The notes beneath the pieces were generated by a model, which saw nothing but the letters and a program-made list of their open reading frames with translations, was not told the DNA's origin and searched no databases. Made by a program: the position numbers and the translations under genes. Positions 46,454 to 60,307 of a stretch of DNA of 64,000 bases are shown in pieces (position 1 is the stretch's first letter; each line of letters opens with the position of its first letter). The stretch is from Iphione sp. A-MEVVRFRX5 (lineage: Eukaryota), in the NCBI GenBank assembly GCA_976226885.1, contig OZ320315.1, forward strand, positions 57,412,001-57,476,000, written 5' to 3'.

Positions 46454-49400
46454 TTAGGTTGGCGTAGTACCTGGAAGTAGAAGATGAGTAGAGGGAGTAG
46501 AGGAAAAGAGAAGAGGGCTGAGTGTGGGAGCAGAAGTGCCCCTGCACAAACCATCTATGAGATTTTTGTTGAACTCATAGAAGTTGGCTAGGGTGTACAG
46601 GCTATTCAGGCCCTCTTCCTGGGCACAATTGATGATGTGTAGCTCCAGGTCAGGGGCCGAGTAGTGAGCAAGACTCTCATCACTGGCAAAGCATGCTATG
46701 CCAGCATGCTCGAGCTCACTACAGTTGGTGAGGACATGGGGAGTGAGAAGATAGAACCACATATGCAGGGTTGGTACTCTGGTATGTCCACCAGTCTCTG
46801 GTACCCCAGTCTCAGCCTGGTGATGATGGTCTGGAGATTGCATTTCATGTGCACCATGGGTGGGGGGGCGTGACTTCATGAGGTGTCTGTGCCACTCCCA
46901 GCTCCTCAATGGAGACACCTTATCTAGACTGGCCCTCCACTTCTCCAGTACTGTTCTCCCCAGAGAGGAAAGTGTTTGCTAGAGTGAGGGGTTTGTCAGC
47001 ATAAGGACTGCTGGCCAGAGTGAGGCAAGTTTGGCAGCCTTGTCTGCCTACTTGTTTCTGGCTATCCCGATATGGGAGGGAATCTAGTGCAAGACTGTAT
47101 TCCTGGCAAGGGATGCATGGAAGCTTAGCAGTTCCTATATGTGCCTGGCTAGCACATGGGTGGTGTCTGTCTCCTGTATGGCAAGGATAGCATTGTAGGA
47201 GTCTGAGTGGATCACCACTGGCTCTCTACTGTGCTTGTCTAGTGCAAGGATGATGGCTGCTAGCTCTGTTGCGAGACTAGACATGCCATCACTGACCATG
47301 GTGCCATAGGCAATCCAGTTGTACAGGTAACCATCTATGTAAGTGCAGGCTATGCCTGCCCTGCAAGTGCGGGTCTGAGCTGCCATCAGTGAAGATGTGT
47401 GTACCTCCGGGAAGAAGTTCCCTTAGTCTCTTTTATCTCTGCGAGACCAATGGTCCGGAGAACCATGGGGCTGATCTCCTCCTTCTTGTATGGGGAGAGA
47501 TTGGCCACTACGGTGACCGGGGTTCCATTCCCAGGGAGTCAGTTGGAGGGGTTTAGGAGTGGGGATGAGGCATCCCCCTATCTCCTTGGCCCTCTCCACT
47601 GCTGCCTTCAGAGCGAGAGGTTTCCCTGGCTCATGTGAGCCCTCCAGTTCTTTTCTGACCTGCCTGGCATACTCAAGTTTGCTGGCAGTTCTTACTAGGA
47701 AGCAGGAGAAGACCTGGAGGATCTGGTCCCTGATAGGAGGAAACCCTGCCTCGGATCACAGGATTTCAATGCCTGTGCAAGGTGGCATGCATTATATTTT
47801 GTGCAGTGTGCAGTTCTGTACCTTATTCAGCTTCAGCAACAGTGAGTTGTGGCTACTGTTCAACTTCTTCTTTGCTCAGTCGGTTCTGACTGTGCCAAGC
47901 AGAAGGCTGAGATAGGGGGCCATGTAATCGATTACGGAGAGCACCACTTATACATAGTACTGGCGGAGCATACTTACACTTGCATCCCATGAGAAGCCAG
48001 ACAAGATGCCCATGATTCTGAGCCTAGCTTTGAGTCGGTCAACAATGTGGTTGACCACTGGCTTGAGGGTCAGATCCTTGTCTACCATGATCCCTAGGTA
48101 CTTGTAGCTGGGGACCCATTCATGGATTCACTGCAACTACAAGTTCTTGACCTGGGTTGTTCTCATACATGTGCATAGCCTTGGTCTTAGGTTGAGAGAC
48201 TTTCAGTCCCCGACAATGACACTTGTTAAGGACCACTGCTAGGGCATGGTTGGCCACCCTATGTGCATTCAGTTTGTCCATGCAAATGAGTGCCACATCA
48301 TCAGCATATGAAAGAATGGCTGTGCCCTGAATATAGGTGTTGACCAGCTGCTCCATCACATTGTTGAAAAGTAGGGTACTGAGTACCCCACCCTGTGGCA
48401 CCCCATTGTGCAGGTCATGGTAGGAGGAGGTTTCTCCCTGGAAGGACACCCTGGCCTTTTGCTCCCTTAGGTAGTCTGTGATGTAGGCAAAAAGTTTGCC
48501 TTGCACCCCAGTACGCACCAGGGAGCTGAGGATGACAGTGTGGTCCACCAGCTTGAAAGCCTTCTCCAGGTCTAGGAAAAGGACAACACATTTGTGTCTG
48601 ATCTGTCTGACAGATAGCACCTCCTTGAGGAGGGCCGCAACACAATGCACCTTCAAACAGCCTTTTTCAAAGCCATAAATGTGCTCCTGGGTCTTGTAAC
48701 CAGCGAGCTCCTGAGAATGCCGTACCCAGTTTAGCATAATCTTTTCCAGGACTTTTCCCATTGTCTGAAGTAGGGTGATTGGGCATTGTCCTCCTTCGGC
48801 TTTGGGAATGGGCATGATGTTACCCAGTTTCCAAGCTGGCCGGACTTCTCCTTTCTGAAAAACATTGTTCAGTACCTTGCATGTCCCTGTTTCTAGAGTT
48901 TAGTTTTGCCAGTTGTACTTTTGGGATGCGATCAGATCCAGTGGCTGTGTTATGGGCTCCGTGAAGTGCTCTTGCAATCTCCATAGAGATGATTATGCCA
49001 TCAAGACCATCTGGGCTCGGGTGCTCTGTAGCCTCTATGATACTTTTCTCCTTTTTGGGTGTCAGGTTGGCTAGTGCTTTCCTGTGGCCCTCTGGGAGGT
49101 TATCTAGGCTTGTGCACTGAGTGAACAGCATGGCCAGTTCTTCTGCTTTCTTGGCAGGGTGAGGATGGAGGGGTTTTCTGGGGGACTGTCCCCCTATGAT
49201 TCGGATCTTGTCCCAAAGAACCTTGGTGGTGGTGCATGCATTGAACGACTCTCACTACTTCTGCCAGGATTTTCATTTTTCCTCTGCATAGATCTTGGCC
49301 CACTTCTGTTCCAGCCGAAGGGCAGCCAGCAATGAAGGGGAGTGGGTTTTTGCGGTAGAGACCACTGATGCGGTTGACAGTGGAGGTGGCTCATCATCTG

Positions 49401-50032
49401 CACTGAGAGGTGTTGTACTACCACTGCCTACTATTTGGCCACCTGGTCTCAGGGATATGCTTGTCCATGGCAGTCTAGATCATCCCAGCTAAAGTTTCAG
49501 GATCCAGCACCTCTCTACCATCCTGCCCAACAAGGCTTTCAAGACACTTGTTGACTTTCTCCCAGTTTGCTTTAAGGTGGTTAAGTCACCAAGGGTGAGT
49601 GGGTATGTGTACTTTGGGCATTCCAATGCTGATCTTCGATCTGAAGTGGTCTGAGAAGAGCTCCAGAGTGACCTCCCATTGAGCTTTGTTAGCCAGCTGG
49701 TTGTTAACCAGTGCCAGATGATCCCAACTGATGGGTCAGTGACCCATCATTTAGGATCACCAATGTAGTATCATCAGTGAGTTCCTCCAGGAATCATTTT
49801 CCGGCACGGGAGTCTGGATTGCTTTGCCCCAAGCTGAGTGCTTGAGGTTGAAGTCACCAGCGATGAGCCAGTGAGCTCCATCCTCATGAGCATCATTACT
49901 CAAACAGTCTGTGAGGCGAACTGAGTCAAGCAGTGATGATAAAGGTTGACTACTTCCAACTTGCAACCTTCTTGCAGTCGGAGAGTAACCTTCACCAACC
50001 CAGTTTTGGGGTTGGGCTTTGCTGTTACCTGG
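46454..50032 (-). mobile_element. RNase H-containing (I-group-like) LINE, 3' part, decayed
   Basis: APE LEVVNLY, LIAGDFNLKHSAWG and SDH; RT KVLEK, YGF, FLDLEKAF, GVPQGGVLS and SYADD (48120-48815); RNase H ELAAI..AL and VIHSDS (47135-47386); C-terminal C..ES..HY remnant (~46650). Confidence 0.85.
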
Positions 50033-50329
50033 TGTTGGAGCCACTGCGTGGCTGCGGCACCGCGGCACGCCAGAGGTGCTGCGGCACAGTGGATCAGTTG
50101 GCGGGGTGCAGCGGCATGCCCCCGTGCGGCACTCGAAGGGGTGCTGCGGAGTTTGAGGGGACAGTACCCGGATGCCAAGAGACTGGGGGTGGGTATATAA
50201 GGGAGTTGGCCCACCTGGGCAGTTCAGATTATCTCTGGTGCTCATGTTGAAGCTTACTATTTGTGCCTTACTGAATAAACCTCTTTACCTTAACTGGAGT
50301 CATGTCTTACTTGCGGAGCGGGCGTTACA
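50033..50329 (+). repeat. 5' LTR
   Basis: TGTTGGAG...GCGTTACA; TATATAA at 50194-50200; AATAAA at 50274-50279. Confidence 0.97.
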
Positions 50330-50330
50330 T

Positions 50331-50348
50331 TGGTGGCAGCGGTGGGAT
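50331..50348 (+). promoter_or_regulatory. Primer-binding site, tRNA-Leu
   Basis: TGGTGGCAGCGGTGGGAT, 1 nt after the LTR, is complementary to the metazoan tRNA-Leu 3' end ...AUCCCACCGCUGCCACCA. Confidence 0.9.
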
Positions 50349-51747
50349 GGAGGAATTACCCACAGGGGCACCGCGGCCGCGAGGACGAGGGACGCGCTCT
50401 GCTCCTCGGGGAGGACGCGTAGGACGTACCGTTCCCCATGAGCGGTCCCCCGCGAGAGGAGACTCCAGCACTGAAGACGAGGAAGTGCGGATCGGGACGC
50501 ACCGCGTGCCGCGGGGCCGCAGCACCCCCCTGCGGCGCGGCACCCGGCCGTGCCGCAGCACCCCATCGTGCCGCAGCGGCACAGCACTGTCCGACGAGGA
50601 CCATTCGTCGAGCCGCAGCAGCAGTGAGGATTCTTCCGTGTCCAGCGGGGCTGGCTCACCCCGTGGGAGGAGCAGCGGCGACGCCACACCGGGGACCCCC
50701 GCCGGGGTGGGGGGGCATGCAGCCGGGGCGGCGAACCCCCGCGACCCCGCTACCCCGGCCCCCCCGCCGCCAGCGGCGCCGCCGGCCGGTCTTTCCCCGT
50801 CCAACCCGAGCCCGGGTGGGGGCGGGCACGGAAATGCCGTACAGCTGATGCGGGGACTGATGGATGAGATCCAGTCCGCTCTCCGGCCCACCCCCCCGGT
50901 GCCCCCGACTCGCCGGTTCCACGTCAAGCCGGAACCCTTCAGTGGAGGGGTCCCCCTTGCAGAGTACCTGCATCACTTCTCCCTGGTAGCCCGGGCCAAC
51001 CGTTGGGATGAAGCGGAGCAGGCGCTGCAACTCAGCGTGTGCCTCAGGGGCTCGGCGCAGTCTGCCCTCCGCTCTGCCAACGTGGATGTGTCAGCGGAGG
51101 GGGCGTTCGCGACCATTGTCGAAACCTTGCGACAGAGGTTCCAGTCGGAGGATCGAGCCCAGTATTATGAGCAGGAATTAAAACAGCGTCGCCAGAAGAA
51201 GGACGAGGACGTCCAGAAATTAGCCGAGGAGATCGAGAGGCTGGTACGGCAGGCCTACCCCGAGGCCGAAGGCTCCTGGCTGGATCGAATGTGCAAGGAC
51301 GCCTTCGTCTCGGCCCTCCGCGAAGAGCGTTGCCGGAGGTGGGTCGTGCAGGCTAAAGCTCGGTCCTTCCAGGCGGCCATCTCGGAGGCGCTTTTGGCCG
51401 AGTCGTACCACCGCGCCGAGAAGGAACGCAGTCCGGGGACTGGGGCGACGCGGGTCCATGCGGCACAGGCTGAATCTCAAGAGGTGGCGGCCGCCAGCCA
51501 TGACACCAAGACGACAACCGGATTGGAGCGCATTGAGCAACTCCTGGCAAAGCTACTAGAACAGCCCGCGGCCGCCGCCTCCCCCGTTAGGCGAGGCGGA
51601 AAGCGCGCGAGCAATGAAGGATGCTTTTACTGCAAGGAGCCCGGGCACTTCAAGCGGGACTGCCCGGCGCGGAAAGCGGCCGAGGGCGTCGCCGAAGCGG
51701 CCCCGTCGCAGCCGGAAAACGAGAAGCCGCCCGCCCCGGCTCAGTAG
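50347..51747 (+). CDS. gag: Gag (capsid plus CCHC nucleocapsid)
   Basis: KPEPFSGG...HFSLVARANRW...LRQRF capsid-like core and CFYCKEPGHFKRDC knuckle. The ORF is open from an ATG at 50302 in U5; 50347 (gggATGg) is the likely start. Confidence 0.93.
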   Translation: MEELPTGAPRPRGRGTRSAPRGGRVGRTVPHERSPARGDSSTEDEEVRIGTHRVPRGRSTPLRRGTRPCRSTPSCRSGTALSDEDHSSSRSSSEDSSVSSGAGSPRGRSSGDATPGTPAGVGGHAAGAANPRDPATPAPPPPAAPPAGLSPSNPSPGGGGHGNAVQLMRGLMDEIQSALRPTPPVPPTRRFHVKPEPFSGGVPLAEYLHHFSLVARANRWDEAEQALQLSVCLRGSAQSALRSANVDVSAEGAFATIVETLRQRFQSEDRAQYYEQELKQRRQKKDEDVQKLAEEIERLVRQAYPEAEGSWLDRMCKDAFVSALREERCRRWVVQAKARSFQAAISEALLAESYHRAEKERSPGTGATRVHAAQAESQEVAAASHDTKTTTGLERIEQLLAKLLEQPAAAASPVRRGGKRASNEGCFYCKEPGHFKRDCPARKAAEGVAEAAPSQPENEKPPAPAQ

Positions 51748-54700
51748 GGCGGGCGGCGTCCGATTCCGTACCCTCCGGCCTGGGCCCCCCCTTGGAGGCG
51801 ATGGTCGCCGCCGTCGAGGGGGAAACCAGGAGGGTACTGCAGGGAAGGAGGAGGACGGGGTGCCGGGGAGTACTGTTAGAAGGAGAAGTTGGCGGACAGG
51901 TGGTGGACTGGCTGGTGGACACGGGGGCCTCCGCTTCCCTCCTCTCGGCACGGTCCTACCGAGAATTACAGGGGGTGTCATTGGACCCGGCGGGGGCACA
52001 AGTCTTCGGGGTGGATGGCAGCGCCCTACAAGTGTTGGGGCTGGTGGATTGCGAAGTCCGGTTCGCAGGGGCCACTCTACGGGTGGTGGCTATCGTGGTA
52101 GAGATGGAGATACCGGGCCTACTTGGGTTGGACTGGCTGGATCGGTGGGCGGCCACAGTGGATACGAGGGAGGCCACCGTCACCGTTTGTCCCGGCCACC
52201 GCGAATGGGCAGCCACCCTGCGAGCCAGCGGCAGCCAAGAGATTCCTGCAGGAGGCATAGGCTGGGTGCAAGCGAAGGCGTGTCAAGGAGGGGTCGACTC
52301 TTTGGAAGGGTTGACAGAGGCTGACGCCCAGTTCGAGTCACGCTCGGGACTACGAGTGGCGCGCGCGCTGGTACGACCCCAGGAGGGGAGGGTGTGGGTT
52401 CCAGTGTGGAATCCCGGCCCCCAGGCGACACGAGTCTTCGAGGGAACCCGGCTGGCCGAGCTCAGCCGGGTCGCCGCGGTGTTGGGACCACCCGAGCCCC
52501 CCCGGGAGCAGGTAGAGGCAGAACAAGAGCAAGCGGTAGAATACTTGCTAGGGCAACTACCGGCAGAGACCACCGACCCAGAGCGGCAGCAGATAGCGGC
52601 CATGCTGCGGTGCCATCGCGAGGTCTTCCAGACAGCCAGTGGCCCGCTCGGGCGTACCCCGGAGGTCCGACATCGTATCGACACCCAGGGCCACCCACCC
52701 ATTCGTCAACGAGCAAGGCGCCTCCCCCCTCACAAGAGGGAGGCAGTTCGCGCGGAGGTAGACAAGATGGTGCGGAAGGGGGTGCTGGAGCCCTCCACAA
52801 GCCCGTGGGCATCCCCGCTGGTGCTCGTACAGAAGAAGGATGGGGGACTGCGGTTTTGCATCGACTATCGCAAACTCAACGCCGTCACCAAGAAAGATGC
52901 GTTCCCCCTCCCTCGGATAGACGACACCCTTGATGCTCTACAGGGCAGCCAGTACTTTTCCGCGATCGACCTGGCCAGTGGCTACTGGCAGGTCGAGATG
53001 GAGCCGGCGGATGCGGAAAAGACGGCGGTGTGCACCCCGAATGGCCTTTACCAGTTCCGGGTAATGCCGTTCGGCCTCTGCAACGCGCCCTCCACCTTTG
53101 AGCGGCTTATGGAGTCCGTGCTGCGGGGCCTCGTGGGCACCGAGTGCTTAGTGTATCTCGACGACGTGATCGTCCTGGGCCGCTCGGTGGAGGAGATGTG
53201 CACGCGACTAGGCACGGTATTCCAGAGGCTGGAGGAGGCTGGACTCCGCGTCAAAGCATCCAAGTGCCAGCTATTCCAGCGAGAGGTGGCATACTTGGGC
53301 CATCGGGTCTCGGCGGAGGGAGTGGGGGTCGACCCGGAGAAGGTCAGGGCCGTCGCGCGATGGCCCCGCCCCCGGTGCGTAGCAGAACTTCGAAGCTTTC
53401 TAGGACTCTGCTCGTACTACCGCAGCTTTGTGGAGGGGTTTGCCACCCTGGCGGCACCCCTGCACGCCCTGGCTGGAGCGGAGCAGGAGTTCCGGTGGGC
53501 CCCCGCCTGTCAAGAAGCCTTCGAGCAACTGAAGGCTCGGCTGTCCACTACCCCCATCTTGGGTTACCCGACACCTGTGGGACAGCTGCTACTGGACACC
53601 GATGCTTCGGACACCGGCATCGGTGCGGTGTTATCCCAGCTGCAGGAGGGGCGCGAGCGGGTGCTGGCCTACGCCAGTCGCACACTGACTCGCCCAGAAC
53701 GGAACTATTGCGTTACGAGGAAAGAACTCCTGGCGGTGGTGTTCGCCCTCCGGAAGTTTAGATGCTATGTGGGGGGAAGGGCCATTGACATCCGCACTGA
53801 CCACGATTCCTTGCGCTGGCTGTGCAACTTCCACGAACCACAGGGTCAGCTGGCCAGGTGGCTGGAAGAGATCTTCTGCCATGACCTTCGGATCACGCAC
53901 CGGCCAGGGAAGCGCCATGGTAACGCCGACGGACTATCACGACGAGAATGCAAGCAGTGCGGCCGTCGAGAGCTGGAGTCCGAGAGTGCGGCGGCGGTAG
54001 GCATCGCCGGAGTAGAGGGCGGCCCCGACGTGTGCCAGATGCAGAGGGCGGAACCGGCAACGGCCGAGCTCATCCAAGCGCTAGAAGGAGGGGAGCCTCC
54101 CCCTGGGCTGCGGGCTGGACTGACCTGGGAAGAAAGACAGCTCAGAGCGGAGGGCCCGAGACTCGAGCTCCGATCGGGAGCACTGGTGCGCCTCTGGGAA
54201 GAGGAAGACCGGCAGAGGCTCCCCCAGACCTACGTCCCCCGGGCCATACGGAAGAGCCTCTGGCAGGAGACCCATGCCGGCCCAGTGGGCGGCCACCTCG
54301 GTCCGGAGAAGACTGGAGCAGCGCTGCGCCGGCGCTGGTTCTGGCCCGGGATGTCGCGCGACGTTGCACGCTGGTCACAGTGCTGCCAGGCCTGCCAACA
54401 AAGGAAAGGGCCAGGAAGGCGACACCGGGCCCACCTGCAAGGACGCCCTGTGTCGGAGCCGTGGGAAGTGCTGGCGGCCGACATTTTGGGGCCACTGCCG
54501 GTGACGGAGAGAGGAAACAGGTATATCTTGGTAGTGGCCGACCACTTCTCGAAGTGGACCGAGGCGTTCCCTCTGGAGGAGGCCACTGCAGCGGCCACCG
54601 CCGACATCATCGTTAGGGAAGTGGTCTGCCGTTTCGGTCCCCCACGGGTACTCCATTCGGACCAGGGCCGTAACTTCGAGGCGGCTCTGTTCGTGGAGGT

Positions 54701-57700
54701 GCTGCGACTCCTCGGGATAGAGAAATCCCGAACCACCCCGTACCACCCTCAGAGTGATGGGGTGGTCGAGCGATTTAATCGCACCTTGGGGAACATGCTG
54801 GGCACGCTGGCCGAGGAGCGTCGGAAGGACTGGGACCAGGCCCTGCCGTTCGTGATGGCTGCCTACCGGGCCACCCCCCACAACGCTACGGGGGAGTCTC
54901 CGAACCAAACGCTGCTGCATCGGGAGGTGACACTGCCGGTGGAGCTACGCTATGGTGGCCCGGCCCCACCCCTGGTGGATCGCGGGGAGTACGCGAACCG
55001 GATGGCGGAAGAGGTCCGCCGAGCGCATGAGAAGGTGGCGGAGAAATTGAGTCGCGTGGCTGAACAGCAGAAGGACTGGTATAACCGAGGGGTGAGACAC
55101 CAACGGTATGCCGAGGGCGACCGAGTCTGGCTTTTCACCCCGGCTCGCAAGAAAGGGATCTCCCCGAAGCTGCAGAGCTGGTGGGAGGGGCCTTGGACCG
55201 TGGAAAAGGCGTTGTCCGAGGTGGTGTACCGAGTCAGTCGGGGACACCGACAGAGGGTAGTCCATGCCGATCGCCTGAAGATCGCCCACCTCGACCCCCA
55301 GGTGACGTGCGGCGTTCAAGAAGCCGCAGCGGCACAGGACGAGGTGCAGCGGGTTCGAGAAGAAGCCGCAGGGCCGCGCGACCTTACCCCGACGATAGGG
55401 GGCGCCGCAGCCGCATCTCTGCATATAAGAGGCAGCGCGCCGGGGCCCGTCCCGCCGGCCGCAGTACCGCGTGGTTCGACTGCTAGTCTCCAGGCGGCGC
55501 CAGGGGAGCCGCAGGAAGTTGCACCCGAGCGACACCACTCGATCCACAGCGTCGTAATCTACGCCACACGTGTCGAACGCCAGCCTGACGCACTTACACT
55601 CGCCAACCGGAAAATATCGCCCCAAGGCCGCTGCGACAAGGAGGAAGCCGCTGCCACTCAGCATCTGCGTTCAACGAGGGACTCGCCGCAGCAGCACGAG
55701 GTGAGGAATCCACCGTTGGTAGCCGCACATATGGGCGATAACCGGGGTAACGGGAGAAAGCCGCGTTGGGTGAGCGGCGAAGGTCGGGATGCACCCTTGT
55801 TTTTCGATGAAGTGTGTGATAAACCTGTCGCCGCTGCGGAGGGAACTACCTGGAACCGTTACTCTCATGGGTACCTTTCTTCCGCAGCTCGACTGGCGTG
55901 CCGCGCGGGGGTGGACTGTAGCCGCACCATTCCCCTCCGCCGCAGTGGCCGCAGGCTCGCCCGCTCCAGTGGGGTTGACGCGCCCCTGCCGCTGTGCGGC
56001 AAACTGACTGACGCAACGCCGCAGCTTGGGTGCCGGGACGCCGCCGCAGCATCACCGGGCAACGCCCAGCGACGAGAGGATCGCCGCAGTACCGCGCTTA
56101 GCCACCCACGCGGAGAGATCCACGACGCCGCAGAGGCCGACCTTGCCGCACCAGGGCCGATCCAGACCCGCAGTGCCGCTGCGGCCCTCGTTGTTCCACC
56201 ACTGAGCGGCCGTGCGGATTGCGCCTCGCCAGAGCCGCATCGCCGCAGCAACGACATGGCGGACTTGCCCGAGGACGTCCCCCCGCCCGGCGCAGAGAGC
56301 AGCGACTCGGAGTCCTCTGGCGAAGAGGAGCCGGCCGCCCCGGAAGAACGCCGTCACCGTTGCTCCCGCTGCAAGTCTACCTTCGCGCAGCCATCCAACT
56401 TACGCCGCCACCTGAAGGACGTGCATGCGCCGGAGGGGTTGGGCTGGTTGTGCCCCGACCCCGAGTGTGAACAGCAGGCCTTCCATCGGCGCACCGACTG
56501 GAAGCGACACCTGAACGGGGTGCACGAGCCCAACGATTGGGCCCTTACGGTGGACCTCCAGTACCTGCGGTTCTGGGGCCTCAACCCCACCTACGGGGAA
56601 CCGCGGCTCTGCCCGGCCGACAAGATGGAGATGTTGCAGCGAGCCCGGGCCCGGGAAAAGAAGAGCCGGGAGAAGGAGGTGCGTCGGGCAGCGGGCCGAC
56701 TCCCGACGCAGAGGGGGGCCTCCAAGCGGGGCGGTAAGAAAAGAGGGCGCTCCGCTACGCTAGAGGAGGGCAGCGATAGCCGAACCGAGGGACCGCCCGC
56801 GACGACTCCAGGGGCTGCAACCCAGCAGCAGCAGGAGCCCGACGCCGGTCCGTTGGCCGGGCAGCCGGAGGACCAAGCAGGGCCACCATCCGCGCAGCCG
56901 TCGACGTCCACGGGTACGTCGACCCCGTCGGGCCCCCGAGCCATCGGGGGGACGCGGAAGGCCCGGCGGCGACGGGGAGCGTCCACCCGTCAGAGGAGAG
57001 ACCCCCCTCCCAGTTCGTCGGAGGAAGGTGCTCTGCCGTCCGCTCGGGCGCCAGGAGTAGTATCCCGGACGGTGTCGTCGGGCCCGCCGGACGAGGAAGA
57101 GACCATGGCCAGGGATGACGACCAGAGTGGGAGTAGCTGCGCCGGACCCCCCCCACCGCCCGCAACCACCAGAGCGCCGGATCCGAGAGGAGGAGTACCG
57201 CCGCGCCCTCCGGGCGCTGAGGGCGCCACCGTTGCCCTGGAGGGACGAGGGACGGACCTCCCCACAGGTACCCCCCACCGGGGACCGCAAACTCCACCGG
57301 GCCCCCCGCCTAGCAGTAGTTCGGGCCGGGACTCCTCCACCGACGAGGCGCGGCGCTTGGTAAAGGAGTGGGCTGCCAGCGCCCGGCGTGGAGAAGGGGC
57401 TGACCGTCGCGCCCCGGGATCTCCAGCGTCAACTATGCCCGACCCTCCGCCAGACAGTGGGAGAGGAGGGTCCGATGTCTCCGGTCAGACCACGGACCGC
57501 GGCACGGGGACTCCCGACGAGGCGGACGATGTTGGCACTCCTTCCACGGCCGAGCCCTCGCCCCAGGAAGCATTAGGCCAGGGCACTGGCTCTGCGGGAG
57601 CCGCGACCGGAGACAGCCAGGGCAGTGGGGGTTCGGGACCACCACCCCGTCTGGACCAGCGGCTGGCGACTCGCACGTATGCGAGGTCGCACCGCCCTTT

Positions 57701-59846
57701 CCCCCAGGAAGAAGGAGGACGGGACGCCCCCCCACCACGACCAGAGGTAGCCACGCCCGACGATATAGACCTGCCTGCTGGGGCGTCGCACTACAAGGGA
57801 CGCAGGCTGTTCCTGGACTCGGCCAGCCAGACGTCAACGGACGAGCCTCCCCCGCAGCTGCGGGTGGTCCTCCCCCGGGCATCGGCTGTGGAGCCGAGGA
57901 GTGAGGGACCGCCCGGGCTCGCCGGTACGGCGGGGACTCGCCAGGTGGGAGTACGGGCGACGTTTCGGGCCTCTCCCACGGCTCGGCCGGCCGGATTGTC
58001 CCCCCCCTGTCGCCTCCCTGGCATGGGCAGGGGTGCCCCCAGCAGCCGCGGAGAGCCCAGGCCGGGAACCCCGATGGGAGCGCCATCATGGGAGGACGAG
58101 GAGAGTCGGCTGGACGAACGCCTGGGCGTAGGCTGGGAACGACCGGTAGAGAGTGACGTGGTGGACCTGGTAACACCACCCGGGTCCGTCACACCATCGC
58201 CAGCCAAAAGACCGAGACTAAAGGGGGCCGCGGGGGCCGACCCGGCCGGGGAGCCCTTGACCGCGGGCCCGGCCGGGGCACACGGGTCCTCAAGCGAGGG
58301 ACAGACCCTCGGCGACGACGGTGAGGAGGACCAGGAGCTGGCGACTCTCTTCGAAGAAGAGTCATCGGAGGAGGAGCCGGAACCCCCCCCCGTCGACGTG
58401 GCCTCGCGCCCGTGCGGCTCGCCTGTGCCCGACGCCGCTCCCAAGGGTCTCCAGCCGGCCATGCCCGCCGAACCGAGGGCTCCTCCCGGGCCCGACAGCG
58501 CAACCGTAGCCGAAACCGCAGCCAGATCCCCGAGGAGTCTGCCGCCAGAAGCGGCCCCGACGTCGGTGGCGCGAAGGGAGGCGGAGGCGGAGAAGGGTCC
58601 CGATGGCGGCGCGAGACCCGACCCTACTGCCGCCGAGGGGGTCGACCCGACGTCCGACCTCACGACCAGCTCAGCCGCCGAGCCAGCCATCGCAGAGACG
58701 CCAGCGGAGAGTCCGCGGGGCGGGCTTACCACCCTGGGGCAGGGGGGTGAAGAGGTGACACCGGGCCCAGGGGGGGCACACGAACCCAGCGAGCCGGTGG
58801 GGGACGAGGTCGCCACAACGGAAGAAGCTGAGTTAGCCACCAGCCCCGCCGCCAACCCCACCACGGACCCAACCCCCGGGGGATTACCGACTGAAGGGCG
58901 CCGAGAAGACACTACCGAGGGGATGACGGGTCCAGAGCAGCCGGGAGAGCCGAGGGACCTGACGGAGGGGGGGCCTCGGCCCCCTCCACTTCATCTCCAG
59001 CTATTACCCCAGCCCGCGCGGGGGAGAGGGAACTGGTCCACAGGGCGGGCGCGAGGTAGAAGCACGTCCCCGAGGCCAGGGACGACTCGACCGGAAGGGC
59101 CCCGACGGAAGCAAGGCGGAGCCGGCGTGCCTGTGACGGCTGGAGGGGGCACAGAGGGCCGCGGTCGAGGGCCCCTTTTTGCGTCCACCCCAGGAACCTC
59201 CGGAGGCGAGGGAAGAGCGAGCCCTCGCGGAGTGGCCCCCGTCCGGCCTTGGGAGGACCCGACTACAACAGCTGCGCCAGGAGGTCGTCCGCGCGGGCCG
59301 ACACCGGGCCCTGGCCGCGGAGCACGCCCCCCGTCGGGCCCCTCCCTGGCGCTGGGGCCGCCAGCGCTCCCCGGTCCGGAAGGGTGGGGGACACGGCCAC
59401 GCTTCCCCCCGGGCCCATCTGCTCCTCCCAGCGTGCCTTGGCCGGGCCGGCCGGCCCCCGGAACCGGGGCACCACTGCAGGATGTGTCGGGTTCGTCGGG
59501 AGCGGAAGAGGAGGTTCCGGCCGCCGTATACGTCTGGGCGGCAGCACGCTTGGTGTCGCCGGAGTCCACCCTACCACCCGGGTGGATGATTATCTCCAAT
59601 TCCTCGGCACTGGACGTGCAAGTGCTTACCGCCGGGCAAGTGAAGGTCGTCATCCGGCAGACCGTCACGTTCCGACGGCTCGGGGTGCCGATCCCAGGCA
59701 GCGAGCTGGCCACGTGGTATGCCAACTACGGGACGGTGCTAACGCGGGGCCGTCCAGTGCGGCTCCTGTCCACGTGGCGGGAGGAGCCCACCGCCGGGGG
59801 TAATGTAGAAGTCCACATTCGCGAATCATGGACAGTTTATCTCTGA
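51621..59846 (+). CDS. pol: Pol polyprotein PR-RT-RH-IN fused in frame to a zinc-finger accessory region (2741 aa open frame, -1 relative to gag)
   Basis: PR DTG 51918; RT YLDD 53154; RNase H DTDAS 53595; IN HHCC from 54273 and D/D(35)E at 54480/54660/54768; GPY/F-like WEGPW ~55185; C2H2 pair 56361-56525; stop only at 59844-59846. Confidence 0.95.
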   Translation: MLLLQGARALQAGLPGAESGRGRRRSGPVAAGKREAARPGSVGRAASDSVPSGLGPPLEAMVAAVEGETRRVLQGRRRTGCRGVLLEGEVGGQVVDWLVDTGASASLLSARSYRELQGVSLDPAGAQVFGVDGSALQVLGLVDCEVRFAGATLRVVAIVVEMEIPGLLGLDWLDRWAATVDTREATVTVCPGHREWAATLRASGSQEIPAGGIGWVQAKACQGGVDSLEGLTEADAQFESRSGLRVARALVRPQEGRVWVPVWNPGPQATRVFEGTRLAELSRVAAVLGPPEPPREQVEAEQEQAVEYLLGQLPAETTDPERQQIAAMLRCHREVFQTASGPLGRTPEVRHRIDTQGHPPIRQRARRLPPHKREAVRAEVDKMVRKGVLEPSTSPWASPLVLVQKKDGGLRFCIDYRKLNAVTKKDAFPLPRIDDTLDALQGSQYFSAIDLASGYWQVEMEPADAEKTAVCTPNGLYQFRVMPFGLCNAPSTFERLMESVLRGLVGTECLVYLDDVIVLGRSVEEMCTRLGTVFQRLEEAGLRVKASKCQLFQREVAYLGHRVSAEGVGVDPEKVRAVARWPRPRCVAELRSFLGLCSYYRSFVEGFATLAAPLHALAGAEQEFRWAPACQEAFEQLKARLSTTPILGYPTPVGQLLLDTDASDTGIGAVLSQLQEGRERVLAYASRTLTRPERNYCVTRKELLAVVFALRKFRCYVGGRAIDIRTDHDSLRWLCNFHEPQGQLARWLEEIFCHDLRITHRPGKRHGNADGLSRRECKQCGRRELESESAAAVGIAGVEGGPDVCQMQRAEPATAELIQALEGGEPPPGLRAGLTWEERQLRAEGPRLELRSGALVRLWEEEDRQRLPQTYVPRAIRKSLWQETHAGPVGGHLGPEKTGAALRRRWFWPGMSRDVARWSQCCQACQQRKGPGRRHRAHLQGRPVSEPWEVLAADILGPLPVTERGNRYILVVADHFSKWTEAFPLEEATAAATADIIVREVVCRFGPPRVLHSDQGRNFEAALFVEVLRLLGIEKSRTTPYHPQSDGVVERFNRTLGNMLGTLAEERRKDWDQALPFVMAAYRATPHNATGESPNQTLLHREVTLPVELRYGGPAPPLVDRGEYANRMAEEVRRAHEKVAEKLSRVAEQQKDWYNRGVRHQRYAEGDRVWLFTPARKKGISPKLQSWWEGPWTVEKALSEVVYRVSRGHRQRVVHADRLKIAHLDPQVTCGVQEAAAAQDEVQRVREEAAGPRDLTPTIGGAAAASLHIRGSAPGPVPPAAVPRGSTASLQAAPGEPQEVAPERHHSIHSVVIYATRVERQPDALTLANRKISPQGRCDKEEAAATQHLRSTRDSPQQHEVRNPPLVAAHMGDNRGNGRKPRWVSGEGRDAPLFFDEVCDKPVAAAEGTTWNRYSHGYLSSAARLACRAGVDCSRTIPLRRSGRRLARSSGVDAPLPLCGKLTDATPQLGCRDAAAASPGNAQRREDRRSTALSHPRGEIHDAAEADLAAPGPIQTRSAAAALVVPPLSGRADCASPEPHRRSNDMADLPEDVPPPGAESSDSESSGEEEPAAPEERRHRCSRCKSTFAQPSNLRRHLKDVHAPEGLGWLCPDPECEQQAFHRRTDWKRHLNGVHEPNDWALTVDLQYLRFWGLNPTYGEPRLCPADKMEMLQRARAREKKSREKEVRRAAGRLPTQRGASKRGGKKRGRSATLEEGSDSRTEGPPATTPGAATQQQQEPDAGPLAGQPEDQAGPPSAQPSTSTGTSTPSGPRAIGGTRKARRRRGASTRQRRDPPPSSSEEGALPSARAPGVVSRTVSSGPPDEEETMARDDDQSGSSCAGPPPPPATTRAPDPRGGVPPRPPGAEGATVALEGRGTDLPTGTPHRGPQTPPGPPPSSSSGRDSSTDEARRLVKEWAASARRGEGADRRAPGSPASTMPDPPPDSGRGGSDVSGQTTDRGTGTPDEADDVGTPSTAEPSPQEALGQGTGSAGAATGDSQGSGGSGPPPRLDQRLATRTYARSHRPFPQEEGGRDAPPPRPEVATPDDIDLPAGASHYKGRRLFLDSASQTSTDEPPPQLRVVLPRASAVEPRSEGPPGLAGTAGTRQVGVRATFRASPTARPAGLSPPCRLPGMGRGAPSSRGEPRPGTPMGAPSWEDEESRLDERLGVGWERPVESDVVDLVTPPGSVTPSPAKRPRLKGAAGADPAGEPLTAGPAGAHGSSSEGQTLGDDGEEDQELATLFEEESSEEEPEPPPVDVASRPCGSPVPDAAPKGLQPAMPAEPRAPPGPDSATVAETAARSPRSLPPEAAPTSVARREAEAEKGPDGGARPDPTAAEGVDPTSDLTTSSAAEPAIAETPAESPRGGLTTLGQGGEEVTPGPGGAHEPSEPVGDEVATTEEAELATSPAANPTTDPTPGGLPTEGRREDTTEGMTGPEQPGEPRDLTEGGPRPPPLHLQLLPQPARGRGNWSTGRARGRSTSPRPGTTRPEGPRRKQGGAGVPVTAGGGTEGRGRGPLFASTPGTSGGEGRASPRGVAPVRPWEDPTTTAAPGGRPRGPTPGPGRGARPPSGPSLALGPPALPGPEGWGTRPRFPPGPSAPPSVPWPGRPAPGTGAPLQDVSGSSGAEEEVPAAVYVWAAARLVSPESTLPPGWMIISNSSALDVQVLTAGQVKVVIRQTVTFRRLGVPIPGSELATWYANYGTVLTRGRPVRLLSTWREEPTAGGNVEVHIRESWTVYL
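51714..51757 (+). promoter_or_regulatory. Candidate -1 ribosomal frameshift signal
   Basis: G_GAA_AAC (51714-51720), 5-nt spacer, then a perfect 11-bp stem GCCGCCCGCCC (51726-51736) / GGGCGGGCGGC (51747-51757). Confidence 0.65.
56256..59846 (+). CDS. Putative separately expressed ORF3: tandem C2H2 zinc-finger protein, 1196 aa
   Basis: In-frame gacATGg at 56256; CSRC...HLKDVH and CPDPEC...WKRHLNGVH; basic KRGGKKRGR; long P/G/E/T-rich region; C-terminal hydrophobic/beta-like segment. Confidence 0.6.
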   Translation: MADLPEDVPPPGAESSDSESSGEEEPAAPEERRHRCSRCKSTFAQPSNLRRHLKDVHAPEGLGWLCPDPECEQQAFHRRTDWKRHLNGVHEPNDWALTVDLQYLRFWGLNPTYGEPRLCPADKMEMLQRARAREKKSREKEVRRAAGRLPTQRGASKRGGKKRGRSATLEEGSDSRTEGPPATTPGAATQQQQEPDAGPLAGQPEDQAGPPSAQPSTSTGTSTPSGPRAIGGTRKARRRRGASTRQRRDPPPSSSEEGALPSARAPGVVSRTVSSGPPDEEETMARDDDQSGSSCAGPPPPPATTRAPDPRGGVPPRPPGAEGATVALEGRGTDLPTGTPHRGPQTPPGPPPSSSSGRDSSTDEARRLVKEWAASARRGEGADRRAPGSPASTMPDPPPDSGRGGSDVSGQTTDRGTGTPDEADDVGTPSTAEPSPQEALGQGTGSAGAATGDSQGSGGSGPPPRLDQRLATRTYARSHRPFPQEEGGRDAPPPRPEVATPDDIDLPAGASHYKGRRLFLDSASQTSTDEPPPQLRVVLPRASAVEPRSEGPPGLAGTAGTRQVGVRATFRASPTARPAGLSPPCRLPGMGRGAPSSRGEPRPGTPMGAPSWEDEESRLDERLGVGWERPVESDVVDLVTPPGSVTPSPAKRPRLKGAAGADPAGEPLTAGPAGAHGSSSEGQTLGDDGEEDQELATLFEEESSEEEPEPPPVDVASRPCGSPVPDAAPKGLQPAMPAEPRAPPGPDSATVAETAARSPRSLPPEAAPTSVARREAEAEKGPDGGARPDPTAAEGVDPTSDLTTSSAAEPAIAETPAESPRGGLTTLGQGGEEVTPGPGGAHEPSEPVGDEVATTEEAELATSPAANPTTDPTPGGLPTEGRREDTTEGMTGPEQPGEPRDLTEGGPRPPPLHLQLLPQPARGRGNWSTGRARGRSTSPRPGTTRPEGPRRKQGGAGVPVTAGGGTEGRGRGPLFASTPGTSGGEGRASPRGVAPVRPWEDPTTTAAPGGRPRGPTPGPGRGARPPSGPSLALGPPALPGPEGWGTRPRFPPGPSAPPSVPWPGRPAPGTGAPLQDVSGSSGAEEEVPAAVYVWAAARLVSPESTLPPGWMIISNSSALDVQVLTAGQVKVVIRQTVTFRRLGVPIPGSELATWYANYGTVLTRGRPVRLLSTWREEPTAGGNVEVHIRESWTVYL

Positions 59847-59997
59847 TCCTGAGAAGTGGGCATTGCTGACGATTGGACTGCCCCTGGACTCGCGTGATTG
59901 TATCACCGGACTTGATCGCAGACCGCCCCCGGACTGAGCATGTTGTTAGTTACAAGTTACGGTTGGGGAGTGAGTTGCTTGGGGACAAGCAACCTCT

Positions 59998-60007
59998 AAG
60001 GGGAGGG
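59998..60007 (+). promoter_or_regulatory. Polypurine tract
   Basis: AAGGGGAGGG followed by TAA and the 3' LTR. Confidence 0.9.
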
Positions 60008-60010
60008 TAA

Positions 60011-60307
60011 TGTTGGAGCCACTGCGTGGCTGCGGCACCGCGGCACGCCAGAGGTGCTGCGGCACAGTGGATCAGTTGGCGGGGTGCAGCGGCATGCCCC
60101 CGTGCGGCACTCGAAGGGGTGCTGCGGAGTTTGAGGGGACAGTACCCGGATGCCAAGAGACTGGGGGTGGGTATATAAGGGAGTTGGCCCACCTGGGCAG
60201 TTCAGATTATCTCTGGTGCTCATGTTGAAGCTTACTATTTGTGCCTTACTGAATAAACCTCTTTACCTTAACTGGAGTCATGTCTTACTTGCGGAGCGGG
60301 CGTTACA
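60011..60307 (+). repeat. 3' LTR
   Basis: Direct repeat of 50033-50329, immediately after the PPT. Confidence 0.97.

What the first reader, a model, noticed from the sequence alone, without database searches (positions are those of the whole stretch)
55290..59846. Young gypsy whose Pol runs in frame into a ~1200-aa C2H2 zinc-finger protein instead of stopping after integrase
Seen: integrase ends near 55290 (HADRLK) but the frame stays open to 59846. It passes a strong-context ATG (56256), two C2H2 fingers (56361-56525), a basic KRGGKKRGR patch, acidic tracts, about 900 disordered residues and a compact C-terminal segment. No transmembrane or signal segment is evident, so it is not env-like. 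Known: standard gypsy Pol C-terminal additions are GPY/F and chromodomains. Inference: this is a nuclear DNA-binding accessory protein (trans-activator, anti-silencing factor or integration-targeting tether) carried by an element that transposed very recently.
Basis: partly seen in the sequence, partly recalled or inferred. Interest (0 to 1): 0.85.

Follow-up and report, generated by a model that had tools for sequence, protein, structure and literature searches.

The report
Retrotransposon carrying its own zinc-finger regulator
A large, recently active family of jumping genes keeps a zinc-finger protein joined in frame to the end of its replication enzymes, and that protein likely binds short repeats in the element's own promoters to switch it on, much as some complex retroviruses do.

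Summary
Confirmed, and not a one-off. The element (50033-60307, identical 297-bp LTRs) has one 2742-codon frame: PR-RT-RH-IN, then a linker, two C2H2 fingers, ~925 disordered residues and a folded 123-aa C-terminal domain of no known family. Fingers and C-terminal domain are as constrained as RT (shared-variant dN/dS 0.04, 0.07, 0.07). A monophyletic clade in this genome, with finger domains only 45-57% identical, keeps Pol and fingers in one frame through linkers of very different lengths. The linker also looks like a second promoter: TATA, a conserved 3n+1 intron that removes every upstream ATG, and arrays of TGCGG, which is also the top motif in the LTR U3. Finger 2's invariant R/D/R helix would read GCG. 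Best reading: a self-encoded, LTR-binding transcription regulator made from an internal spliced mRNA and also carried as a Pol tail. Binding, transcripts and activation are untested; no RNA run was listed. Closest precedents: Cer1 CERV (architecture) and foamy-virus Tas (logic). 10 of 120 outside long-Pol relatives also carry C2H2 fingers after integrase.

The parts
50033..50329 (+). 5' LTR (TG...CA); U3 with TGCGG array (50053, 50080, 50125, 50145), TATA 50194, AATAAA 50274
50331..50348 (+). Primer-binding site complementary to the 3' end of tRNA-Leu(AAG)
50347..51747 (+). gag with CCHC knuckle
51714..51757 (+). GGAAAAC heptamer plus GC stem, predicted -1 gag-pol frameshift; similar in 6 of 6 other subfamilies printed
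   Evidence: mechanism inferred
51618..55280 (+). pol: protease, RT, RNase H, integrase (to HADRLK)
55281..56255 (+). Linker: open in the Pol frame; 24 TGCGG/CCGCA sites; predicted internal promoter and 5' leader
55397..55406 (+). RRRGGGCGCC motif (CTCF-like; consensus recalled), in linker A of 7 of 10 subfamily representatives, 0 in 28 kb of pol
55424..55431 (+). Internal TATA box (predicted)
55701..55887 (+). Predicted 187-nt intron (GAG|GTGAGG ... TTTCTTCCGCAG|), length 3n+1, holding all 4 ATGs between the TATA and 56256
55731..55887 (+). In-frame ATG and conserved MGD...KPRWxxGxGR peptide inside the intron; codon-periodic conservation
56256..59846 (+). Zinc-finger ORF, 1196 aa from ATG 56256, in frame with pol
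56361..56696 (+). Two C2H2 fingers (56361-56426, 56451-56525) plus conserved beta-hairpin and long basic helix
56703..59474 (+). Basic KRGGKKRGR patch (56724) and ~925-aa disordered acidic/Pro-rich region with short conserved islands
59475..59843 (+). Folded 123-aa alpha/beta C-terminal domain, no Pfam family
59998..60010 (+). Polypurine tract
60011..60307 (+). 3' LTR, identical to the 5' LTR

Best explanation
This gypsy clade keeps a two-C2H2-finger protein in frame with Pol, and that protein is likely a self-encoded transcription regulator that would bind the TGCGG repeats in the element's LTR and in a predicted internal promoter. Steps: (1) a TATA promoter in the IN-to-finger linker would start a short transcript; splicing of the 3n+1 intron removes all upstream ATGs so translation starts at 56256 (signals shown, transcript inferred). 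(2) The fingers would bind GCGG-containing sites in U3 and around the internal TATA; the acidic disordered region would recruit co-activators, giving a Tas-like feedback loop (inferred). (3) Unspliced genomic RNA, after a predicted -1 frameshift, gives Gag-Pol-finger. The frame is shown to be selected; this would package the regulator into particles and deliver it to the new DNA copy (purpose inferred).
For: Selection on the protein: shared-variant dN/dS ZF 0.04, CTD 0.07, RT 0.07, IN 0.03, disordered region 0.32-0.67; private variants 0.3-1.1 (window + 38 copies). Frame: 29 of 33 loci with both anchor motifs are open and in frame, while alternative frames hold 2-22 stops; 17 of 18 distinct IN-to-donor lengths (336-1221 nt) are multiples of 3; shared stop gains 0 of 70 in frame versus 13 of 173 in the other two frames. 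Splice signals: donor in 33 of 33 and intron length 3n+1 in 33 of 33; first ATG after the acceptor is in the ORF frame in 10 of 10 representatives. Outer families L090 and L095 show CCAAT-TATA, and in L089, L090, L094, L095 the next ATG is the finger ATG. Motif: TGCGG is the top 5-mer in U3 (40 vs 6.8 in shuffles) and in intron+linker B (93 vs 22.7), enriched in linker A (57 vs 17.9), not in pol (92 vs 79) or the disordered region (59 vs 61.5). Motif bases vary less than other linker bases (14/120 vs 248/855, p=2e-5). U3 strand is mostly TGCGG and linker mostly CCGCA, which suits double-stranded DNA. Three finger-less gypsy LTRs hold 0-3 per kb. Finger 2 R(-1)/D3/R6 and finger 1 N3/R6 are invariant in 15 of 15; the recalled C2H2 code reads these as GCG and GAN.
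Against: No binding, transcript or protein was observed. The L088 family has the same finger-2 helix but 0 TGCGG and 11 TGCA in U3, with a degenerate finger 1. The base after TGCGG is C more often than A, against the GAN prediction. No TATA match in the L049, L052, L055 or L077 linkers; in L057 it lies inside the intron. L093 has an out-of-frame ATG after its TATA-like site, and outer families L089, L090, L095 show no clear splice pair. A host factor could bind the motif instead. The LTR control is only three families of lower GC. Subfamilies are related, so counts are not independent; L040-L059 were picked for long frames.
Confidence: 0.5

Rival explanations
1. Sequence-specific anti-silencing factor: it binds the same TGCGG arrays but acts by removing or blocking DNA methylation/heterochromatin on its own copies (VANC-like; VANC recalled, not read).
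For: Same motif evidence. The motif contains CpG, and CpGs in motifs vary less than other linker CpGs (5/24 vs 47/103). The element is 63-72% GC and CpG-rich in a ~40% GC background.
Against: No chromatin-enzyme or reader domain in Pfam. Motifs cluster at two TATA regions and are not spread over the element.
Confidence: 0.17
2. Integrase appendage: the fingers or the C-terminal domain stay on IN and hold it to the element's own cDNA ends, or tether it to chromatin, as a chromodomain does.
For: The fusion frame is selected even where the linker amino acids are not (linker A dN/dS 0.99). The first TGCGG lies within about 25 bp of the U3 end in most families. 10 of 120 outside relatives also carry fingers in frame after IN.
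Against: Insertion flanks of 20 copies show no motif enrichment (0.4-1.0 per kb vs 0.56 background) and AT-rich 4-bp target sites. A tether would not need a TATA, an ATG-clearing intron and a strong ATG just before finger 1.
Confidence: 0.15
3. Rev/CERV-like factor that binds the element's RNA and promotes export of unspliced genomic RNA or controls the linker intron.
For: The genomic RNA retains a strong donor/acceptor pair. Cer1's CERV sits at the same place in a single 2272-aa polyprotein frame, is made by splicing and is needed for gRNA export (PMC10309623).
Against: Fingers are classical C2H2 whose best structural matches are DNA-bound (CTCF, tramtrack-type). Motif orientation differs between U3 and linker. 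The linker RNA folds no better than shuffles (z 0.52).
Confidence: 0.12
4. A captured host fragment carried passively; the open frame is an accident of youth or high GC.
For: High GC lowers stop density; linker A amino acids evolve neutrally.
Against: dN/dS 0.04-0.07 in ZF and CTD; retained across subfamilies with 45-57% ZF identity; alternative frames full of stops.
Confidence: 0.02

Closest known systems
Cer1 CERV of Caenorhabditis elegans (PMC10309623; abstract, passages and section 6 read)
   Same: Gypsy/Ty3 element; non-env 3' ORF inside one long polyprotein frame with pol; expressed separately through splicing; nuclear; Cys-rich metal-binding part.
   Different: CERV joins gag exons to the 3' ORF, has a candidate C4 finger and exports gRNA. 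Here: two classical C2H2 fingers, a short intron inside the IN-to-ORF linker behind a predicted internal TATA, a repeated DNA motif shared with U3. Sequences not compared.
Foamy-virus Tas/Bel1 with internal promoter (PMC13220597 abstract; PMC4929722 and PMC8670036 listing and abstract starts)
   Same: Predicted logic: an internal promoter makes a DNA-binding protein that acts on the internal promoter and the LTR; spliced and unspliced products.
   Different: Tas belongs to enveloped retroviruses, lies after env and is not fused to Pol. Here no env, a C2H2 protein, in frame with Pol; activity untested.
Plant LTR-retrotransposon additional ORFs, e.g. Grande gene23, Retand (PMC7264820; parts 1-2 of 3 read)
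   Same: Conserved extra ORF between pol and 3' LTR; some nuclear and with their own promoter; a regulatory role has been proposed.
   Different: Those regulatory candidates are antisense, separate from pol and have no recognised DNA-binding domain.
Chromoviruses (chromodomain at the IN C-terminus)
   Same: Extra nuclear module in frame after integrase.
   Different: No chromodomain; the addition is ~1500 aa with its own predicted start; no targeting signal seen at insertion sites.

Membership tests
Ty3/gypsy LTR retrotransposon | Domain order PR-RT-RH-IN | tested here: met
Ty3/gypsy LTR retrotransposon | TG...CA LTRs, tRNA PBS, PPT, TSD | tested here: met
Classical C2H2 zinc finger | C-x2-4-C-x12/13-H-x3-5-H with beta-beta-alpha fold | tested here: met
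   Pfam score below curated cut-off
Classical C2H2 zinc finger | Sequence-specific DNA binding | not testable with these tools
   indirect only:
env-bearing gypsy (errantivirus-like) | Third ORF with signal/TM segments or Baculo_F homology | tested here: not met
   contrast L081 and L082, which match Baculo_F
Chromovirus | Chromodomain after integrase | tested here: not met
   no Chromo match at E<=1
Cer1 CERV | 3' ORF in the same frame as pol | tested here: met
Cer1 CERV | Made from a spliced mRNA | tested here: inconclusive
   conserved splice signals; no transcript seen
Cer1 CERV | Homology to CERV H/M/G domains | not tested
   CERV sequence not fetched
Cer1 CERV | Required for gRNA export | not testable with these tools
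   bench test
Foamy-virus Tas | Expressed from an internal promoter | tested here: inconclusive
   TATA/CCAAT and ATG-free leaders in most, not all, families
Foamy-virus Tas | Binds and activates internal promoter and LTR | not testable with these tools
   shared motif in both regions
Foamy-virus Tas | Lies between env and 3' LTR of a spumaretrovirus | tested here: not met
   no env; gypsy pol
Phage tail-terminator/completion fold (C-terminal domain) | Structural match clearly above background | tested here: inconclusive
   best Z 8.1, rmsd 3.6, 101 aligned; typical background best Z is 7-8

The most novel reading that the evidence does not exclude
A clade of env-less LTR retrotransposons has independently evolved a complex-retrovirus control circuit: it encodes its own C2H2 transcription factor with cognate sites in the LTR and an internal promoter, and packages that factor as a Pol tail so that each new insertion arrives with its activator. 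Related animal gypsy lineages carry other captured C2H2 modules in the same slot, so this may be a recurrent, unrecognised strategy.
Probability: 0.35. Interest if true: 0.9.

Novelty: new variant of a known kind. Interest (0 to 1): 0.78.

Why it matters
LTR retrotransposons are usually taken to rely on host transcription factors; element-encoded DNA-binding transactivators are known from complex retroviruses. The functions of 3' accessory ORFs are an open question (PMC7264820, PMC10309623). Here the protein, its predicted target motif, its promoter and its splice junction are all defined to the base, so the question is directly testable. A GCGG-binding factor made by a very abundant, active clade could also act on host promoters, and such elements are a plausible source or carrier of C2H2 modules.

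Tried and rejected
No RNA holder was listed for 55200-57000; this is no evidence on expression. Word-index searches with the finger region found nothing (weak evidence). The HMMER scan of 1.84 billion representatives with the finger profile listed only multi-finger proteins matching positions 2-71 in its best 150; no row covered the whole domain, but distant relatives could be crowded out. The C-terminal domain had no atlas hit, no Pfam family for 10 of 11 members, only a weak lipase match in PDB sequences, no Foldseek match at E<=0.001 in PDB or viral libraries; it was not searched against the large protein collections. C-terminal homodimer prediction gave no verdict. Linker RNA structure not unusual. 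Targeting of insertions to TGCGG not seen. No conserved upstream (gag) donor across subfamilies with a strict pattern. Shared stops at codons 1825 and 1858 sit at compensating 1-2-nt indel pairs and were treated as alignment artefacts. NMD avoidance as the reason for the open linker was considered and given low weight, because gag already stops ~8 kb before the 3' end (inference). Ten literature searches listed no title or abstract start describing a gypsy-encoded C2H2 LTR regulator; subscription journals and Repbase reports are not covered, and no supplements were read. PMC6338049, PMC13228809 and PMC7828637 (passages only) added nothing specific. The IQ-TREE run failed at display; FastTree was used.

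Full report
1. Observation. The window holds a complete gypsy element at 50033-60307: identical 297-bp LTRs, 4-bp target duplication, tRNA-Leu(AAG) primer site, gag 50347-51747 and one stop-free frame 51618-59846 of 2742 codons. Pfam finds PR, RT, RNase H and integrase to residue 1221 and a weak C2H2 match after ATG 56256. Pol is probably entered by -1 frameshift at GGAAAAC 51714 plus a GC stem, seen in 6 of 6 other subfamilies printed; 12 of 38 copies have a stop just upstream of it.

2. It is a large, young clade. A DNA search scored 40 of 71 candidates, all matching at 81-100%. Twenty copies dated by LTRs show 0-6 mismatches in ~310 bp, 6 of them none. Divergent subfamilies share 80-87% RT, 45-55% finger-domain and mostly 37-64% C-terminal identity with the window copy (one aligned at 17%) but only 11-28% in the linker. 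Of 20 loci taken from an integrase-family search, chosen partly for long frames, 16 carry the finger domain. All 14 finger-bearing local representatives form one clade in an RT-RNase H tree (FastTree support 1.0; 129 sequences).

3. The added protein is under selection. Among the window copy and 38 relatives (the identical twin left out), variants shared by 3 or more copies give dN/dS 0.04 for the fingers, 0.07 for the C-terminal domain, 0.32-0.67 for the disordered region, against 0.07 for RT and 0.03 for IN. Private variants give 0.3-1.1, as expected for decay after insertion. The fingers model as classical C2H2 units followed by a hairpin and a long basic helix (pLDDT 88); best structural matches are DNA-binding fingers (Z 4.4 and below). 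The C-terminal domain models confidently (pLDDT 87) but matches nothing above background.

4. The fusion frame is selected. Linker A (IN end to donor) has dN/dS 0.99, yet no stop in the linker is shared by 3 or more copies, while 6 private ones occur. Shared stop gains are 0 of 70 one-step chances in frame against 13 of 173 in the other frames. Of 41 sequences scanned, 33 had both anchor motifs (4 lacked the IN motif, 4 the finger motif); 29 of 33 are open and in frame, and the four others are broken each in its own way. Twenty of the 33 (the window copy and 19 loci) had long frames by selection; among the 13 not so picked, 9 are open. The IN-to-donor distance takes 18 values from 336 to 1221 nt, 17 of them multiples of 3. 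In 15 more distant loci 11 are open; the broken L083, L084 and L087 have intact sisters.

5. The linker also looks like a promoter and leader. In the window copy a TATA at 55424 is followed by a donor at 55701 and an acceptor at 55887; the acceptor's last 19 nt are unchanged in 35 of 37 aligned copies. All four ATGs between the TATA and 56256 lie in this 187-nt intron. All 33 loci have the donor and a 3n+1 intron, although intron length runs from 169 to 487 nt and the acceptor position differs between subfamilies. The first ATG after the acceptor is in the ORF frame in 10 of 10 representatives. The L088 group has a weaker pair with the same phases; the outer L089, L090 and L095 groups show no clear pair, but have a TATA (with CCAAT boxes in L090 and L095) whose next ATG is the finger ATG, except in L093. 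A CTCF-like motif (consensus recalled) lies in linker A of 7 of 10 representatives and never in 28 kb of pol. Against: four representatives have no TATA match in the linker. The intron itself is conserved codon-wise (third positions 0.21, first and second 0.03-0.06) and encodes MGD...KPRWxxGxGR in five subfamilies, so the unspliced form is likely translated too.

6. A candidate target. An unbiased 5-mer scan over ten representatives ranks TGCGG/CCGCA first in U3 (40 vs 6.8 in dinucleotide shuffles) and in intron+linker B (93 vs 22.7), with enrichment in linker A (57 vs 17.9) and none in pol or the disordered region. Motif bases in the linker vary less than their neighbours (14/120 vs 248/855). 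U3 of the outer L089 and L090 groups has 4-5 copies, L095 has five GCGG. Three finger-less gypsy LTRs have 0-3 per kb and insertion flanks are at background. Finger 2 has R(-1), D3, R6 in 15 of 15 and in the outer families printed; by the recalled C2H2 code this reads GCG. Counter-evidence: L088 has TGCA arrays instead, and the next base is more often C than the A predicted from finger 1. A host factor binding these sites is not excluded.

7. Outside this genome. No homologue of the full finger domain was listed. Among the 120 listed of 598 long Pol proteins related by integrase (at most 53% identical), 10 carry one to three C2H2 motifs after IN in the same frame; several have multiple full-length cluster members. 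They fall in at least two other parts of the tree and resemble this protein only as generic C2H2. Named neighbours are animal (fish, molluscs, arachnids). An earlier unchecked note of this scan (e1-7276517) describes a similar fusion in another genome and pointed to CERV; I read the paper, not that element.

8. Mechanism. Shown: frame, selection on protein and frame, conserved splice signals, ATG clearance, motif enrichment and conservation. Inferred: internal transcription, splicing, DNA binding, activation, packaging of the Pol-fused form. Best reading (0.5): a self-encoded regulator of the LTR and internal promoter, Tas-like in logic, CERV-like in layout. Rivals: anti-silencing through the same sites (0.17), integrase appendage (0.15), RNA export (0.12), passive cargo (0.02).

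9. Comparison and novelty. It is a Ty3/gypsy element, not env-bearing and not a chromovirus. It shares with Cer1 an accessory ORF inside the pol frame (PMC10309623: abstract, passages, section 6) and, by prediction, shares with foamy viruses an internal-promoter transactivator circuit (PMC13220597: abstract). Plant additional ORFs are proposed regulators without a known DNA-binding domain (PMC7264820: parts 1-2 of 3). Ten searches listed nothing describing a gypsy-encoded C2H2 LTR regulator; the library lacks most subscription journals and Repbase, and no supplements were read. Verdict: new variant of a known kind, interest 0.78.

Noticed in passing
window 48120-50032 and 60308 onward (- strand): The element sits inside the endonuclease domain of a decayed LINE (RT match at 48120-48899, Exo_endo_phos match just left of the 5' LTR).
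   Followed up: partly
L081:6642-9134, L082:6725-8845: Other gypsy families in this genome carry a separate Baculo_F-type env ORF; L081 also has a weak chromodomain match at the IN end. L080 has a broken downstream ORF with no clear family.
   Followed up: partly
P0038, P0048 (C-terminal ~55 aa): Outside gypsy polyproteins end in a finger pair resembling the hunchback/Ikaros dimerisation fingers (resemblance recalled; an atlas row named 'Protein hunchback family', rank 7, score 0.93).
   Followed up: partly
P0012, P0028, P0038, P0041, P0048, P0066, P0083, P0087, P0108: Each has a Met shortly before the finger, often after a Leu/Ser/Phe-rich stretch that could be a translated polypyrimidine tract; DNA not available.
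   Followed up: no
P0120 (Haliotis asinina gene model): Integrase core is joined directly to a two-finger segment, suggesting a gene model spliced onto a finger exon.
   Followed up: no
L051, L052, L055, L057, L077 linkers: The acceptor lies 2-11 nt before the finger ATG, and the donor-phase frame stops within 0-3 codons, overlapping that ATG: splicing full-length RNA would end Pol exactly where the finger ORF starts.
   Followed up: partly
window 50486-50613: A further cluster of six CCGCA/TGCGG sites, including an 18-nt tandem repeat, lies in the 5' part of gag.
   Followed up: no
L001 (G000:C1:74.82 Mb): A 99.9% identical copy on another contig with different flanks and target site: a separate, very recent insertion.
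   Followed up: yes
L089, L092-L094, L096, L099: These families have a ~1-kb AT-rich 3' untranslated region before the 3' LTR, unlike the ~160 nt in the window element.
   Followed up: no
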